Below are positions 22,428-25,794 of a stretch of DNA of 64,000 bases, in pieces (the first letter of the stretch is position 1; every line of letters starts with the position of its first letter). The notes under the pieces are model-generated. The model saw only the letters and a program-made list of their open reading frames with translations, had not been told where the DNA came from and did no database searches. Location: sequence record KC690136. One strand, written 5' to 3'. The DNA is from Escherichia phage JES2013. The translations under genes and the position numbers were made by a program.

Positions 22428-22709
22428 ATGAAAAAGATTTGCGATACAGATGTGGAGTTCAAGGTGTGTAGTAAGGAGACCTATTGGGAAGTGAGACAAA
22501 AGGTATATTTGTTTGGACTTATCCCATATTGGTCTAAATTCTACTGGGGAGCAGATGAATTAGGGAGATATGCCACCAAAGCTATGGCGCTTATAGGTAT
22601 AGCTGAATATATTGCTGCTAGGGACAGGGCTGGAAAAACCTGCTACTACACTGCTGACGAGATTCGTAACAGTGTTTACGTCCCCCAACCACCTGAAGGA
22701 GACCGTTGA
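22428..22709 (+). CDS. hypothetical protein
   Basis: Track ORF. Confidence 0.45.
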   Translation: MKKICDTDVEFKVCSKETYWEVRQKVYLFGLIPYWSKFYWGADELGRYATKAMALIGIAEYIAARDRAGKTCYYTADEIRNSVYVPQPPEGDR

Positions 22710-22933
22710 TGAAAGTTAAAGTTTTAGATTCAAGCTTCTATATTGGTCAGGAGCCTTTAGTGGGTAAAGTGTTTACCGCTGTCCCTAACGAAGATTATCC
22801 TGATCTTTTAAAAATAAAGGGCGCAGATCTTATTGCCGCTGGTGCATCTCAGGACTGCTTTGACAGCCAGTGGACCTACAACTTTGCCCTAGGTGAGGAT
22901 GTAGAGATAGTGGAGGATGATCATGAAGGTTAA
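22706..22933 (+). CDS. small acidic protein, MKVK family paralog
   Basis: MMKVKVLDSSFYIGQ...IKGADLIAAGA...EIVE; closest paralog is the next gene. Confidence 0.55.
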   Translation: MMKVKVLDSSFYIGQEPLVGKVFTAVPNEDYPDLLKIKGADLIAAGASQDCFDSQWTYNFALGEDVEIVEDDHEG

Positions 22934-23177
22934 AATTCTTGACTCTAACGTCTACTTGGGGCAATCCTTCCTGAAAGGAAAGGTCATCCCTGCGGTATAC
23001 TTTGAAGGGTTGCCGTGGGATGATCCTGTGCGGCAACATCACAGTTATGTAGGCCACAACGTGGTGTTTATCTTAGGATCAGACCTGATCACCGCTGGTG
23101 CACCTGAATATTATTTCGGGGAAGAGTCCTATTATGCCTTTGGGGTAGGGTCAGATGCAGATATTGTAGAGCTGTGA
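22917..23177 (+). CDS. small acidic protein, MKVK family paralog
   Basis: MIMKVKILDSNVYLGQ...LGSDLITAGA...DIVE. Confidence 0.55.
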   Translation: MIMKVKILDSNVYLGQSFLKGKVIPAVYFEGLPWDDPVRQHHSYVGHNVVFILGSDLITAGAPEYYFGEESYYAFGVGSDADIVEL

Positions 23178-23189
23178 TGGGTAACCGTT

Positions 23190-23588
23190 GTGAAAAATAA
23201 ACTGTTCAAAGTTACAATGAAAATTCGCGGAGCTTGGAGCGTAAAGCAAGGGCGTATCCCAGAATTTGAGAAAGATTTCTACGTAGTCTCCACCTCGGAG
23301 GAGGCTGCATGCTGGCAGGCTGGCTATGCCTATGCAAGAACCTGGTACGAAGGATACCAGACTGGGGGCTATGACGGAGAAATTATCAGCAAGGGTGTAG
23401 AAGAAATTAATGTGTTGACAAGTGAAAAAGTTTTTGTTATAGTGCATCCAGATTCCAGAGTGAAGCATTACTGGAATGCCAGAACAAAAACTTGGACACC
23501 GTTTGCAGATTCTGCTACGCCACTTTTAAACCAGAAAGCTCTTGACTCTGCCCCAAGTTATGGGGTTGTTGAAGAAAAGCTAAACTGA
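23190..23588 (+). CDS. hypothetical protein (paralog of 25399-25794)
   Basis: VIVHPDSRVKHYWNARTKTWTP vs VMRHPHSNIAYYWDVLNNEWTP. Confidence 0.5.
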   Translation: MKNKLFKVTMKIRGAWSVKQGRIPEFEKDFYVVSTSEEAACWQAGYAYARTWYEGYQTGGYDGEIISKGVEEINVLTSEKVFVIVHPDSRVKHYWNARTKTWTPFADSATPLLNQKALDSAPSYGVVEEKLN

Positions 23589-23605
23589 AACAGTGAGGTG
23601 TCACC

Positions 23606-23896
23606 ATGATGGATTTAATTCTAAATATTGATAACGCAGAAGAATTTAAAGACGATGGTGTAACAAGCATGGGCAAACCATGCTCTGCTAAGGTTGACTC
23701 AAAATGGACCTACAAGTTTGACGGAGAGATCTTCGCAAATGATGAGAAGGTTGTAGATGCTGCAGCCATTTTAAACGCTCTAGGGTACGACCCTGTGAAT
23801 TCTTTGATCAAGGATCCTGTTGAGTTTGCAGAGTATGTTCGAAAAATGGCAGATCTTGCTGTGGATATTTTAAAAACTATCGACAACAAGCTGTAA
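23606..23896 (+). CDS. hypothetical protein
   Basis: Track ORF. Confidence 0.45.
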   Translation: MMDLILNIDNAEEFKDDGVTSMGKPCSAKVDSKWTYKFDGEIFANDEKVVDAAAILNALGYDPVNSLIKDPVEFAEYVRKMADLAVDILKTIDNKL

Positions 23897-23902
23897 AAAC
23901 TG

Positions 23903-23931
23903 TTGACACAACGCTTCAGATTTAGTATCAT
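23903..23931 (+). promoter_or_regulatory. sigma70-type promoter
   Basis: TTGACA (23903-23908), 17-nt spacer, TATCAT (23926-23931). Confidence 0.45.
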
Positions 23932-23978
23932 TGTTTTCAAAGAGGGTTTGGTTCCCTCTTCTTTAAAAGGAACATGTT

Positions 23979-24296
23979 GTGCAAATTGAAATCACTGGCA
24001 ACGTAGAGATCACTGAAGGTATGGTGTCTTTCATTTCCCACAAAATGTCTAAGCTGGAGCGTTTGCACCCCTCTGCCAACTATGCACGTGTGAGTGTAAA
24101 AGTTGAAAATGATCACCAGGAAGTCATGGCGTTCATTTTTGACACTTCCGGAAAAGAAGTTATTGCCAAAGCTAAAGGCAGTAACGCTTACGAGGCAACT
24201 GACCGTATGGTAGATGTTGCAGCACGTCAGTTGGCTAAATGCGGTGGAAAGAAAGGTAAAGGGAAAGGCAAAGTAAAGATTGACTTTGGAGAATGA
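23979..24296 (+). CDS. hpf: ribosome hibernation promoting factor homolog (HPF/RaiA, S30AE family)
   Basis: GTG start; MQIEITGNVEITEG...KLE...VKVEN...ARQLAK aligns along its length with E. coli HPF MQLNITGNNVEITEA...KLE...LKVEK...ARQLTK; Lys/Gly-rich tail. Confidence 0.75.
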   Translation: MQIEITGNVEITEGMVSFISHKMSKLERLHPSANYARVSVKVENDHQEVMAFIFDTSGKEVIAKAKGSNAYEATDRMVDVAARQLAKCGGKKGKGKGKVKIDFGE

Positions 24297-24305
24297 GGTG
24301 CTACA

Positions 24306-24407
24306 ATGGGCGTGATTAAGAAATTAGTCCCAAATGTAGAGATTGCATGCTTTGAAATTATGTTTGCAATCGCAGTTGTAGTTAATGTGTTAGGTTACGG
24401 CTATTAA
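24306..24407 (+). CDS. small hydrophobic peptide (33 aa)
   Basis: GAGGTG RBS then ATG 24306; one TM helix. Confidence 0.3.
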   Translation: MGVIKKLVPNVEIACFEIMFAIAVVVNVLGYGY

Positions 24408-24433
24408 TATCAAATAATTGAGGAGACCTCTAA

Positions 24434-24703
24434 ATGAAAATTAAATTATTCAAAACTGAGCTGGCAGACAAAAACTGTGGACTGGTTGAAGGCATGATCG
24501 TTGAAGCACAACCAGTGGACTACATGAAGGTAGTTCGTGATGCCTTGGGTGAAGGCTTTGATCTGATGGAGCCAGCTCTGCGAGAAGATGTTATCGAGAT
24601 GGCTAAAAAGCACACACCTGAAGGCTTGGTGGTGTTTGTTGCACCGGGTAACGGAGAAGAGTTGATTGTAACTCCTGATGTGTATGAGATTGTAGAAGAG
24701 TAA
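24434..24703 (+). CDS. small acidic protein, MKVK family paralog
   Basis: MKIKLFK start, C-terminal YEIVEE; GAGGAG RBS. Confidence 0.5.
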   Translation: MKIKLFKTELADKNCGLVEGMIVEAQPVDYMKVVRDALGEGFDLMEPALREDVIEMAKKHTPEGLVVFVAPGNGEELIVTPDVYEIVEE

Positions 24704-24798
24704 TCCTGCTCGGATTAGCATACTTCTCTCAATAAAAAGAAAAGTTTGTAATTATTTGTGGGAAAGGAATCCCCATCTCTTGCCAGAGGTGATACTAT

Positions 24799-25062
24799 AT
24801 GATTGTTTATTTTAAAACTTCAGGTGGATACCCTGATTCTCAAAGCTTGATCGGAAAAACGTGCACAGCATACTCACCTCTTGATGAGGAGGTAAGCGAT
24901 ATTCTACGAGATATGTATCGGATTGATCCCCAAAAAGCTTTTGATCAAAACCTTGTATTTGTCAAGGGCTCAGACATGAAGTCTTTGGGAGCATTCCCTG
25001 AAGCAGATGATGATGCCGTTTATTCGTTCATGACTCCTTTTGAAGCTATGGTTGTTGGGTGA
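24799..25062 (+). CDS. small acidic protein, MKVK family paralog
   Basis: VFVKGSDMKSLGA motif shared with family. Confidence 0.5.
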   Translation: MIVYFKTSGGYPDSQSLIGKTCTAYSPLDEEVSDILRDMYRIDPQKAFDQNLVFVKGSDMKSLGAFPEADDDAVYSFMTPFEAMVVG

Positions 25063-25066
25063 GAAT

Positions 25067-25399
25067 ATGAAAGTACGATTTATTGGTGAAACAATTCCTG
25101 TGCATCTCCGGTCGCCTGAAGATTCTGCAGATCTTGCATCTCAGAAGGCGAGAGGTTATGATAAGAAAGTAATCTCAAACGCTGTAGAACTTGAGGCTAC
25201 TAGTTTACCTGACCCTGCCGCATTCTTTAATCATTATGGATACTATTTCAGCAATCTGATGAATATCGGTGAGCTTGTGTTTATTAGTGGTGGAGAAATT
25301 GTTAGCAAGCTTGGCGGCGATCCGGATGTCTTTCATGAAACCTGTCCTTTTGCATTTGTGGTAGGTTCAGATGTGGAAGTTATTGAGGAGGTGCGGTAA
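25067..25399 (+). CDS. small acidic protein, MKVK family paralog
   Basis: MKVRFIG start (internal ATG of track ORF 25040); C-terminal VEVIEEV. Confidence 0.5.
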   Translation: MKVRFIGETIPVHLRSPEDSADLASQKARGYDKKVISNAVELEATSLPDPAAFFNHYGYYFSNLMNIGELVFISGGEIVSKLGGDPDVFHETCPFAFVVGSDVEVIEEVR

Positions 25400-25794
25400 T
25401 GGTAAGACTATACCGTGTTGAGTATAGCTCAGATACTGTATACAACGTAAGAAGCAAAGATCGCAGCGACAGAGTGCAAGAAATGTATGTTCTTGCCGAC
25501 AGTCCGTTATCTGCAGCGTTCAAGGCAGGGTCTCTTGCATCTCGTTGGAAATTTGAAGGTGGATCTTTCTATGAAGAAACCCTTGAAGATTCTGTTGTTA
25601 TTTCTTCTGCAGAGGTTTCAGATGACTACGAAGGGAAAAAGTTCGTAATGCGGCACCCACACAGCAACATTGCGTACTACTGGGATGTTCTGAACAACGA
25701 GTGGACCCCAGATCTTCAGAAGGCCACTGTGCTAACACCGTTTTTGGCAGATAAGTTTCCACCAGAAGGTAATTTATCCGCACTGTTTCAGTAA
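25399..25794 (+). CDS. hypothetical protein (paralog of 23190-23588)
   Basis: Shared HP.S...YW...N.WTP core. Confidence 0.5.
   Translation: MVRLYRVEYSSDTVYNVRSKDRSDRVQEMYVLADSPLSAAFKAGSLASRWKFEGGSFYEETLEDSVVISSAEVSDDYEGKKFVMRHPHSNIAYYWDVLNNEWTPDLQKATVLTPFLADKFPPEGNLSALFQ

What the first reader, a model, noticed from the sequence alone, without database searches (positions are those of the whole stretch)
23979..24296. Phage-encoded ribosome hibernation factor (HPF/RaiA) homolog
The 105-aa product aligns along its length with E. coli HPF (MQ.xITGN.VEITE, KLE, VKVE, ARQL). It has its own promoter-like element (23903-23931) and carries a Lys/Gly-rich tail absent from host HPF. A phage copy could shut down or protect host ribosomes during infection.
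Basis: partly seen in the sequence, partly recalled or inferred. Interest (0 to 1): 0.7.

Follow-up and report, generated by a model that had tools for sequence, protein, structure and literature searches.

The report
Known phage ribosome-hibernation-factor homolog (rV5 hpf)
The gene is a real, conserved phage copy of the bacterial ribosome hibernation factor HPF, but it was annotated in 2006-2008 and published and tested in 2019, so only its still-unknown role in infection remains of interest.

Summary
Window 23979-24296 (+) encodes a 105-aa protein that passes the Pfam S30AE threshold (46.4 bits against 23.7, E=7e-12) and TIGR00741. It is 40% identical to E. coli HPF and 23% to RaiA. [quoted passage not shown] A near-consensus sigma-70 promoter lies at 23903-23931.

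The finding is not new. The window is E. coli O157 typing phage 4, an rV5-like Vequintavirus, where this gene is already annotated 'hpf'. In rV5 it is ORF144, 'sigma 54 modulation factor', with promoter P144. Mizuno et al. 2019 (Nat Commun) reported it and expressed it in E. coli. They found it in crude extract but not in 500 mM NH4Cl-washed 70S/100S ribosomes, and 100S levels did not change.

- The core is under strong purifying selection (dN/dS 0.03-0.11).
- A syntenic ortholog at 63% identity exists in a second phage lineage.
- Both lineages have lost ribosome-contact residues that are near-invariant in host HPFs (K80, K89, R17) and are far more basic (pI 9.0 against 6.5).
- The disordered basic tail varies by indels and frameshifts.
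- No phage record encodes RMF.

Best reading: an early-expressed, weak and reversible occupant of the 30S decoding channel that modulates host ribosome hibernation. The direction of the effect is unproven.

The parts
23903..23931 (+). Sigma-70-type early promoter (TTGACA-17 nt-TATCAT); the transcription start is inferred near 23938
   Evidence: 11/12 match. Annotated as P144 in rV5. The -35 box and flanks are invariant in all orthologous loci, including the 63%-identity lineage. Sites with at least 11/12 matches are about 10-fold enriched and co-oriented with the genes.
23940..23964 (+). Short 5'-UTR hairpin (AAGAGGG-N7-CCCTCTT, then CTTT); status doubtful
   Evidence: -9 to -10.6 kcal/mol, but z-score 0.56 against shuffles. 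It is absent from the P0004 lineage, and its 5' arm carries an uncompensated G-to-A change in V18 and YN3. It was not called as a terminator.
23967..23971 (+). Shine-Dalgarno sequence AAGGA, 7 nt before the start codon
   Evidence: Read directly from the sequence; conserved in the rV5-group loci.
23979..24296 (+). hpf-like CDS, 105 aa, GTG start (ECTP4_00611 in KP869102; ortholog of rV5 ORF144)
   Evidence: Core dN/dS is 0.03-0.11. Present in all 117 phage records that match the surrounding region.
23979..24245 (+). [quoted passage not shown]
   Evidence: The AF2 model has blockwise mean pLDDT of 86-95 over residues 1-80; elements are E2-7, H13-29, E33-42, E47-55, E60-67, H70-89. The top 35 Foldseek PDB hits are all HPF/YfiA/pY; the best are V. 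cholerae and E. coli HPF at rmsd 1.0-1.4 A.
24246..24293 (+). Disordered Lys/Gly-rich C-terminal tail (aa 90-105, GGKKGKGKGKVKIDFGE), encoded by a GGN-AAR repeat
   Evidence: pLDDT is below 50. The tail varies between phages by 3- and 6-nt indels and by +1/-1 frameshifts, and has a different basic sequence in the P0004 lineage. The C-terminal peptide VKIDFGE was seen by mass spectrometry for the rV5 protein (PMC6375957).
24306..24407 (+). Downstream 33-aa hydrophobic ORF (phrog_15151, unknown function), probably co-transcribed with hpf
   Evidence: No terminator-like site was called between hpf and this ORF. rV5 annotates the next terminator about 3.9 kb downstream.

Best explanation
This is the hpf gene of an rV5-like Vequintavirus. 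It is an old capture, now fully adapted to the phage, of a gammaproteobacterial short hibernation-promoting factor (S30AE/HPF-YfiA family).

Shown:
- It is a real gene with its own near-consensus sigma-70 promoter, so host RNA polymerase should transcribe it early in infection.
- It keeps the HPF fold and a subset of the rRNA-contact residues: K23, K26, R83, K87, K91 (lost in the P0004 lineage), E44, Y71, D75, D79.
- It is under strong purifying selection.

Inferred: the protein binds vacant host 30S/70S ribosomes in the tRNA/mRNA channel between head and body, as HPF and RaiA do. Binding would be weaker and faster-exchanging, because three near-invariant basic contacts (K80, K89, R17) are lost. 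In their place is diffuse positive charge: extra lysines on strand beta-4, plus a flexible Lys/Gly tail about twice as long as that of host HPF.

The protein has no dimerisation domain, and no phage record encodes RMF, so it cannot build 100S particles by itself.

My committed reading is that it acts as a reversible place-holder. It would occupy idle ribosomes early in infection. That would keep them intact and compete with host HPF/RaiA, and through its tail perhaps with RMF. Ribosomes would then not be locked into deep hibernation and would stay available for phage messages.
For: Family identity:
- Pfam 46.4 bits against 23.7; TIGR00741 45.1 against 40.9.
- PDB sequence hits to E. coli HPF at about 4e-11.
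- 40% identity to E. coli HPF, 23% to RaiA.
- Fold model and Foldseek search.

Real and selected:
- Core dN/dS 0.03-0.11 among rV5-group copies with dS up to 0.79.
- Present in 117 of 117 related phage records.
- A syntenic ortholog at 63% identity lies in a second lineage of 125-137 kb contigs.

Early expression: promoter evidence, and the rV5 annotation.

Contact residues: the contact list comes from cryo-EM structures of HPF- and YfiA-bound ribosomes (bioRxiv 10.1101/2025.10.07.680626). In my alignment of 120 Enterobacterales HPFs plus 10 diverse homologs, the host residues and their phage counterparts are:
- K80: 120/120 in hosts; V or T in phage.
- K89: 119/120; G or S.
- R17: 119/120; V.
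- R33: 111/120; S or T.
- K23, K26, R83 and K87 are kept in both phage lineages; K91 is kept in the rV5 group but is S in the P0004 lineage.

Charge: pI 9.04 against 6.50 for host HPF.

Weak or absent stable binding, and no 100S promotion: PMC6375957.

Tail logic: the longer RaiA tail runs toward the RMF site, whereas the short HPF tail does not clearly do so.

No phage RMF: tblastn at E<=1 found nothing in 50,697 phage records.
Against: Ribosome binding by the phage protein has never been shown. The one test was negative: no peptides in salt-washed 70S/100S although the protein was present in the extract.

Loss of K80, K89 and R17 could mean loss of ribosome binding altogether rather than weakened binding.

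The direction of the effect (protect, inhibit or antagonise) is inference only. The tail is poorly conserved in sequence and is truncated by frameshifts in some isolates, which argues against a precise steric role for it. No expression-timing data for this gene were found in the searched literature.
Confidence: 0.5

Rival explanations
1. Classical hibernation promoter. The phage protein works as host HPF does, cooperating with host RMF to convert 70S into inactive 100S dimers. This would shut down host translation or store ribosomes.
For: The protein is closest to short HPF rather than RaiA: 40% against 23% identity, and NF007780 scores 53 bits against 16 bits for NF007654. The best structural matches are short HPFs. 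The beta-1 motif MQIxITG-NVEITE is kept; in HPF this strand adds ribosome contacts.
Against: Expression in E. coli had no discernible effect on 100S formation, and the protein was not found in the 100S fraction (PMC6375957). K80 and K89, two of the five basic residues of helix alpha-2 that describes as strictly conserved and superimposable in Gram-negative HPFs, are lost. The tail is lengthened in the direction that, in RaiA, approaches the RMF site. No phage record encodes RMF. Global ribosome shut-off from an early promoter would also hit phage translation.
Confidence: 0.15
2. Neofunctionalised RNA-binding protein. The HPF fold (related to dsRBD folds) plus a Lys/Gly tail now binds some other RNA or nucleic acid, such as phage or host mRNA or tRNA, and no longer acts on the ribosome.
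For: It was absent from washed ribosomes. Near-invariant contact residues are lost and pI shifts from 6.5 to 9.0. It falls far below the HPF and RaiA equivalog cut-offs (53 against 125 bits; 16 against 158 bits). It is only about 40% identical to any cellular HPF, while Enterobacterales HPFs are at least 76% identical to E. coli HPF. Weak Foldseek hits to dsRBDs rank after the HPF family.
Against: R83 (contacts m4C1402), K87, K23 and K26 persist in both phage lineages, along with the acidic and aromatic core positions E44, Y71, D75 and D79; K91 persists in the rV5 group only, and E60 is V in the P0004 lineage and absent from P0002. This pattern is what conservation of the ribosome interface would predict. 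Washing at 500 mM NH4Cl is not a fair test of binding.
Confidence: 0.15
3. Dispensable passenger gene (a 'moron' or decaying capture) with no role in infection.
For: No phenotype has ever been reported. The tail shows frameshift variants. This phage uses a GTG start where relatives use ATG.
Against: Core dN/dS is 0.03-0.11. The gene is kept in 117 of 117 related phage records and in a lineage whose synonymous sites are saturated relative to rV5. The promoter is conserved. GC content matches neighbouring phage genes (about 0.42), which indicates long residence in the phage.
Confidence: 0.04

Closest known systems
rV5 ORF144 / Vequintavirus hpf (ABI79209; PHROG 12469), described by Mizuno et al. 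2019, Nat Commun 10:752
   Same: It is the same gene: 98% protein identity, the same position between the same neighbours, and the same promoter P144. The window is 100% identical to KP869102, where the gene is already named hpf.
   Different: Two amino-acid differences (T56 and N69 here; N and D in rV5) and a GTG start instead of ATG.
E. coli short HPF (YhbH, 95 aa; PDB 2rql, 6h4n)
   Same: Same fold, rmsd 1.1-1.4 A over 89-90 alignment columns of the model. 40% identity and an almost identical N-terminus. K23, K26, R83, K87 and K91 are retained. Neither has a C-terminal dimerisation domain.
   Different: K80, K89, R17 and R33 are lost. There is a one-residue deletion in the beta1-alpha1 loop and a one-residue insertion in the beta3-beta4 loop. 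pI is 9.0 against 6.5. The tail is 17 residues and Lys/Gly-rich, against 7 residues by the same split after residue 88 in E. coli HPF. The gene has its own sigma-70 promoter rather than sitting in the rpoN operon. No 100S effect was seen on expression.
E. coli RaiA / YfiA / protein Y (113 aa)
   Same: Same fold and binding-site family. Both have a C-terminal extension beyond helix alpha-2 that is longer than HPF's; in RaiA the extension heads toward the RMF site, and RaiA blocks 100S formation. The absence of 100S induction by the phage protein is RaiA-like.
   Different: Only 23% identity. It scores 16 bits against a cut-off of 158 for the RaiA equivalog model. The RaiA tail is acidic at its end (net -3), whereas the phage tail is basic (net +4).
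Other phage-encoded S30AE proteins (Xanthomonas jumbo phage XaC1 gp256; Cronobacter phage GAP32; PHROG 8990)
   Same: These are independent phage captures of the same family. Mizuno et al. list GAP32, and XaC1 was found here.
   Different: They are unrelated lineages from jumbo phages. XaC1 keeps K80, lacks R83 and has a long acidic tail. The protein here matches PHROG 8990 only weakly (E=1.9e-5).

Membership tests
Ribosomal_S30AE / HPF-YfiA superfamily (Pfam PF02482; TIGR00741) | Sequence score above the curated family threshold | tested here: met
   PF02482: 46.4 bits against GA 23.7, covering profile positions 1-83 of 88. TIGR00741: 45.1 bits against 40.9.
Ribosomal_S30AE / HPF-YfiA superfamily (Pfam PF02482; TIGR00741) | [quoted passage not shown] | tested here: met
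   The AF2 model has blockwise mean pLDDT of 86-95 over residues 1-80, with the elements in the expected order. The top 35 Foldseek PDB hits are all HPF/YfiA/pY, with TM-scores of 0.60-0.82 normalised by query length (TMq) and 0.32-0.93 by target length (TMt).
Ribosomal_S30AE / HPF-YfiA superfamily (Pfam PF02482; TIGR00741) | Two conserved basic patches on helices alpha-1 and alpha-2 that contact 16S rRNA | tested here: inconclusive
   K23, K26, R83 and K87 are kept in both phage lineages; K91 is kept in the rV5 group but is S in the P0004 lineage. R17, K80 and K89 are replaced in both lineages, although they are 119-120/120 conserved in Enterobacterales HPFs (contact lists).
Ribosomal_S30AE / HPF-YfiA superfamily (Pfam PF02482; TIGR00741) | Binds the 30S subunit at the A/P-site channel | not testable with these tools
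   The only experiment found is negative under a 500 mM NH4Cl wash (PMC6375957).
Enterobacterial short HPF, functional equivalog (NCBIfam NF007780) | Score above the equivalog cut-off | tested here: not met
   53.2 bits against a cut-off of 125. About 40% identity, whereas the listed Enterobacterales HPFs are 76-100% identical to the E. coli protein.
Enterobacterial short HPF, functional equivalog (NCBIfam NF007780) | Promotes 90S-to-100S conversion together with RMF | not testable with these tools
   Literature: no discernible effect on 100S formation when expressed in E. coli. No RMF homolog in any phage record.
RaiA / YfiA, functional equivalog (NCBIfam NF007654) | Score above the equivalog cut-off | tested here: not met
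   16.3 bits against a cut-off of 158; 23% identity.
Long HPF (self-sufficient 100S dimeriser of Firmicutes, Thermus and others) | C-terminal dimerisation domain after a linker (total about 180-190 aa) | tested here: not met
   The protein has 105 aa. Residues 90-105 are a disordered Lys/Gly tail with no second domain.

The most novel reading that the evidence does not exclude
The phage protein is an anti-hibernation, or counter-dormancy, factor. It would be a fast-exchanging HPF mimic whose core competes with host HPF/RaiA for the decoding channel. Its flexible Lys/Gly tail would occupy the anti-Shine-Dalgarno/RMF region. This would prevent RMF-driven 100S formation when the host raises ppGpp and RMF in stationary phase or during defence-induced dormancy. 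RMF is enriched in DRT2-protected, phage-infected cells (PMC11100668). Ribosomes would then stay usable for phage translation. Mizuno et al. 2019 already proposed competition with host HPF as a possibility. The mechanistic details offered here (weakened contacts, tail against RMF, a link to defence) are new and untested.
Probability: 0.2. Interest if true: 0.7.

Novelty: already known. Interest (0 to 1): 0.25.

Why it matters
As a discovery it adds little. The gene has been annotated since the rV5 genome was deposited and was the subject of a published expression and ribosome-association experiment.

It still marks an open question. A whole genus of widespread virulent coliphages keeps a diverged hibernation-factor homolog under strong selection and behind an early promoter, and nobody knows what it does. 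If it protects ribosomes or blocks hibernation, it would be a clear case of a phage manipulating the dormancy state of the translation machinery. That bears on phage infection of stationary-phase or gut-resident E. coli and on dormancy-based defences. The residue-level differences listed here (K80V, K89G, R17V, and the basic tail) give concrete mutants to test.

Tried and rejected
- The word-indexed homolog search returned only five near-identical phage proteins. The exhaustive HMMER search gave only 12 hits at E<=1e-3. One of them, P0006 (1160 aa), is a spurious hit to a repeat protein. A robust phylogeny of origin could therefore not be built. The closest cellular relatives are gamma- and beta-proteobacterial-type short HPFs at about 40% identity.
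- The IMG/VR scan with degenerate patterns added only two loci.
- The 5'-UTR hairpin at 23940-23964 was considered as a regulatory element or terminator and rejected as unsupported. Its z-score is 0.56, it is not conserved in the second lineage, and it has uncompensated stem changes.
- I looked for a partner gene such as RMF or another translation factor. The ten neighbours have no significant Pfam hit (one hit at E=0.078, below its gathering score) and match only unknown-function PHROGs. There is no RMF in any phage record, and no tRNA or Rfam hit in the window.
- The historical name 'sigma-54 modulation protein' was rejected as a functional lead. It derives from the position of hpf in the rpoN operon.
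- Searches for transcriptomic or functional follow-up on Vequintavirus hpf found nothing beyond Mizuno 2019 and Mathieu 2020.

Full report
**What is there**

Window 23979-24296 (+) is an open reading frame of 105 codons with a GTG start. An AAGGA Shine-Dalgarno sequence precedes it by 7 nt. The start position is secure for two reasons. The N-terminus MQIEITG-NVEITE matches the MQLNITGNNVEITE of E. coli HPF residue for residue. Orthologs in other phages carry ATG at exactly this position.

The product passes the curated thresholds of Pfam Ribosomal_S30AE (46.4 bits against 23.7, E=7e-12) and of TIGR00741, the HPF/YfiA family (45.1 against 40.9). Its best matches among solved structures are E. 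coli HPF entries 2rql, 4v8h and 6h4n at about 4e-11. Against E. coli K-12 proteins taken from the genome, it is 40% identical to HPF (E=1e-16) and 23% identical to RaiA.

An AlphaFold2 model has blockwise mean pLDDT of 86-95 over residues 1-80. [quoted passage not shown] A Foldseek search of the PDB returned only HPF/YfiA/pY proteins in the first 35 places.

**Where it comes from, and what was already known**

The window is 100% identical to Escherichia coli O157 typing phage 4 (KP869102), a Vequintavirus (rV5-like myovirus). In that record the gene is already named 'hpf, ribosome hibernation promoting factor' (ECTP4_00611).

In the rV5 reference record it is ORF144, 'sigma 54 modulation factor'.

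Mizuno et al. 2019 (PMC6375957) listed this protein family in rV5, FV3, JES-2013, typing phage 14 and FFH2, and more distantly in Cronobacter phage GAP32. They reported that the coliphage sequences cluster among gammaproteobacterial HPFs. They also expressed the rV5 protein from pBAD24 in E. coli:
- Peptides, including the C-terminal VKIDFGE, were found in crude extract.
- No peptides were found in 70S or 100S ribosomes purified through a 500 mM NH4Cl sucrose cushion.
- 100S levels did not change.

The authors themselves named three possible causes: inadequate growth phase, dissociation during the salt wash, or genuine loss of binding. They suggested that viral HPF might compete with the host factor and prevent ribosome dimerisation.

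Mathieu et al. 2020 (PMC6969025) again listed hpf as an auxiliary gene of five rV5-like gut phages. I found no later functional work in the searched library. The finding is thus already known, both as an annotation and in the literature.

**Is it a working gene?**

Yes, by every computational test available.
- tblastn finds it in 117 phage records. Megablast of the surrounding 2.5 kb also finds 117 records. All are rV5-like apart from one bacterial contig.
- Within this group the core (codons 2-89) has dN/dS of 0.03-0.11, with dS up to 0.79.
- A second lineage, found only in metagenome and Logan assemblies of 125-137 kb, carries a syntenic ortholog of 103 aa at 63% identity (P0004). Synonymous sites are saturated between the two lineages, while dN is only about 0.27.
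- The GC content of the gene (about 0.42) equals that of its neighbours, so the capture is old rather than recent.
- The closest cellular sequences are only about 40% identical. The Enterobacterales HPFs listed are 76-100% identical to the E. coli protein.

**Promoter and transcript**

TTGACA-17-TATCAT at 23903-23931 is an 11/12 match to the sigma-70 consensus. Counting all weaker matches, the region is not enriched (19 found, 17 expected). Near-consensus sites are a different matter. The window has 8 sites with at least 11/12 matches on the + strand, all below 30 kb, and 10 on the - strand, all above 32.8 kb. Simulated sequence gives 0.77 +/- 0.85 per strand. All of these sites follow gene orientation.

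The -35 box and its flanks (AAACTGTTGACACA) are invariant in all seven orthologous loci aligned, including the divergent lineage. This supports early transcription by host RNA polymerase.

A short hairpin in the predicted 5' UTR (23940-23964) is not supported. It folds no better than shuffled sequence, it is absent from the second lineage, and it has uncompensated stem changes in V18 and YN3.

No terminator follows the gene. A 33-aa hydrophobic ORF (24306-24407) and a string of small genes of unknown function follow it.

**How it differs from host HPF**

I took the list of ribosome-contacting residues from recent cryo-EM structures of HPF- and YfiA-bound Gram-negative ribosomes (bioRxiv 10.1101/2025.10.07.680626) and from mutagenesis of S. 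aureus HPF (PMC4889938). I then scored those positions in 120 Enterobacterales HPFs, 10 diverse homologs and 5 phage sequences.

Retained in the phage proteins:
- K23, K26, R83 (the contact to m4C1402) and K87, in both phage lineages
- K91, in the rV5 group only (S in the P0004 lineage)
- Q29, replaced by R
- E44, Y71, D75 and D79
- E60, kept in the rV5-group proteins except P0002; V in the P0004 lineage

Lost in both phage lineages:

| Host residue | Conservation in 120 host HPFs | Phage residue |
|---|---|---|
| K80 | 120/120 (also K in RaiA and in 8 of 10 diverse homologs) | V or T |
| K89 | 119/120 | G or S |
| R17 | 119/120 | V |
| R33 | 111/120 | S or T |

The H55/T53 region is also altered, although the alignment there is ambiguous because of a one-residue insertion.

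New basic residues appear on strand beta-4 (K64, K66) and at K59 and R76. The pI rises from 6.50 in the host protein to 9.04.

Splitting each protein after residue 88, as, leaves a 7-residue tail in E. coli HPF and a 17-residue tail, GGKKGKGKGKVKIDFGE, in the phage protein. The phage tail is encoded by a GGN-AAR repeat and varies between isolates:

| Phage / locus | Tail change |
|---|---|
| YN3 | -6 nt |
| IMG/VR contig (L010) | -3 nt |
| APECc02 (also seen independently as P0003) | +1 frameshift |
| Murica | -1 frameshift |
| P0004 lineage | a different basic sequence, SKSKGIDKRTAKWDY |

What is conserved in the tail is positive charge and flexibility, not sequence.

By contrast, the independently acquired HPF of Xanthomonas jumbo phage XaC1 keeps K80 and has an acidic tail.

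**Mechanism**

Shown: family membership, fold, selection, and an early-type promoter.

Inferred: binding to the 30S decoding channel. Retention of R83, K87, K23, K26 and the beta-1 motif fits preservation of that interface. Loss of K80, K89 and R17 predicts lower affinity and faster exchange, which would also explain the absence from salt-washed ribosomes.

The protein has no dimerisation domain. tblastn with E. coli RMF finds nothing in 50,697 phage records even at E<=1. It therefore cannot create 100S particles by itself.

Its tail is lengthened in the direction that, in RaiA, runs toward the RMF site; RaiA does not allow 100S formation.

I therefore favour a reversible place-holder or modulator that competes with host HPF/RaiA and perhaps RMF, and that keeps ribosomes intact and re-usable. 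My confidence that it acts at the ribosome in this general way is about 0.5.

The rivals are:
- a classical RMF-dependent 100S promoter (0.15; contradicted by the expression experiment and by the lost contacts);
- a neofunctionalised RNA binder that no longer uses the ribosome (0.15);
- a dispensable passenger gene (0.04; contradicted by selection).

Hibernation is linked to antiphage dormancy in at least one system, since RMF is enriched in DRT2-protected infected cells (PMC11100668). That makes a counter-dormancy role conceivable, but it is entirely untested.

**Verdict**

What remains open is its function. This analysis contributes a residue-level description of how the phage protein departs from host HPF, the existence of a second divergent lineage, quantified selection, and concrete experiments.

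Noticed in passing
window 23000-25500, and GenBank MG065644-MG065684: Eighteen unannotated GenBank records named 'Campylobacter phage' (host given as C. jejuni or Campylobacter) are about 97% identical to this E. coli Vequintavirus region. They carry the same hpf gene. They are probably mislabelled or contaminant assemblies.
   Followed up: no
L011 (KR698074, APCEc02) 601-906 and 1057-1326; L014 (MN850578, nomo) 1059-1328; window 24434-24703: In APCEc02 the label 'sigma 54 modulation factor' sits on the 89-aa ORF downstream of hpf, which has no Pfam hit. The true hpf is labelled 'hypothetical'. The error was copied into phage nomo. Other records call hpf 'ATP-dependent protease La Type I'.
   Followed up: partly
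window 22923-23588 and 25067-25794: A two-gene module is duplicated on either side of the hpf block. The small proteins at 22923-23177 and 25067-25399 match at blastp 6e-5. The 132- and 131-aa proteins at 23190-23588 and 25399-25794 match at 2.5e-10, and both belong to phrog_7379 of unknown function. The ORF at 22709-22933 is a third copy of the small protein.
   Followed up: partly
window 7367-29947 (+ strand) and 32855-58522 (- strand): Near-consensus sigma-70 promoters (at least 11/12 matches) number 8 on the + strand, all below 30 kb, and 10 on the - strand, all above 32.8 kb. About 0.8 per strand is expected. This indicates two divergent arrays of early genes driven by host RNA polymerase, with a switch point near 30-32.8 kb.
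   Followed up: partly
window 24246-24293; L011, L012, L015, L010: The GGN-AAR repeat that encodes the Lys/Gly tail is a hotspot for change. APECc02 has a +1 G and Murica a -1 A, both frameshifts. YN3 has -6 nt and an IMG/VR contig -3 nt. The frameshifts may be real variants or homopolymer sequencing errors. The APECc02 form recurs in an independent Logan assembly, P0003.
   Followed up: partly
window 24280-24307 and 24306-24407: A TG-extended promoter-like site (TTGACT-16-TACAAT) lies inside the 3' end of hpf. Its -10 box overlaps the ATG of the 33-aa hydrophobic ORF (phrog_15151). It could be an internal promoter giving a leaderless transcript, or it could be chance.
   Followed up: no
window 23979-23981: This phage uses GTG as the hpf start codon, where rV5, V18, YN3, the IMG/VR contig and the divergent P0004 lineage all have ATG. 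The upstream base also differs (ACGTTATG against ATGTTGTG), creating an out-of-frame ATG at 23974.
   Followed up: no
L003-L006 (Logan ERR6997038, ERR4623478, SRR25571739; ENA ERZ16268152): A Vequintavirus-like lineage with contigs of 125-137 kb carries the 63%-identity hpf ortholog. It did not appear in the tblastn search of the 50,697-record phage collection, so it may be an uncultivated or undeposited sister group.
   Followed up: partly
P0006 (1160 aa): A large repeat protein with nine near-identical units of about 100 aa scored E=1e-14 against the phage HPF through nine short matched stretches (the best-scoring one spans query residues 35-81). I judged it a spurious hit to a repeat protein, unrelated to S30AE.
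   Followed up: no
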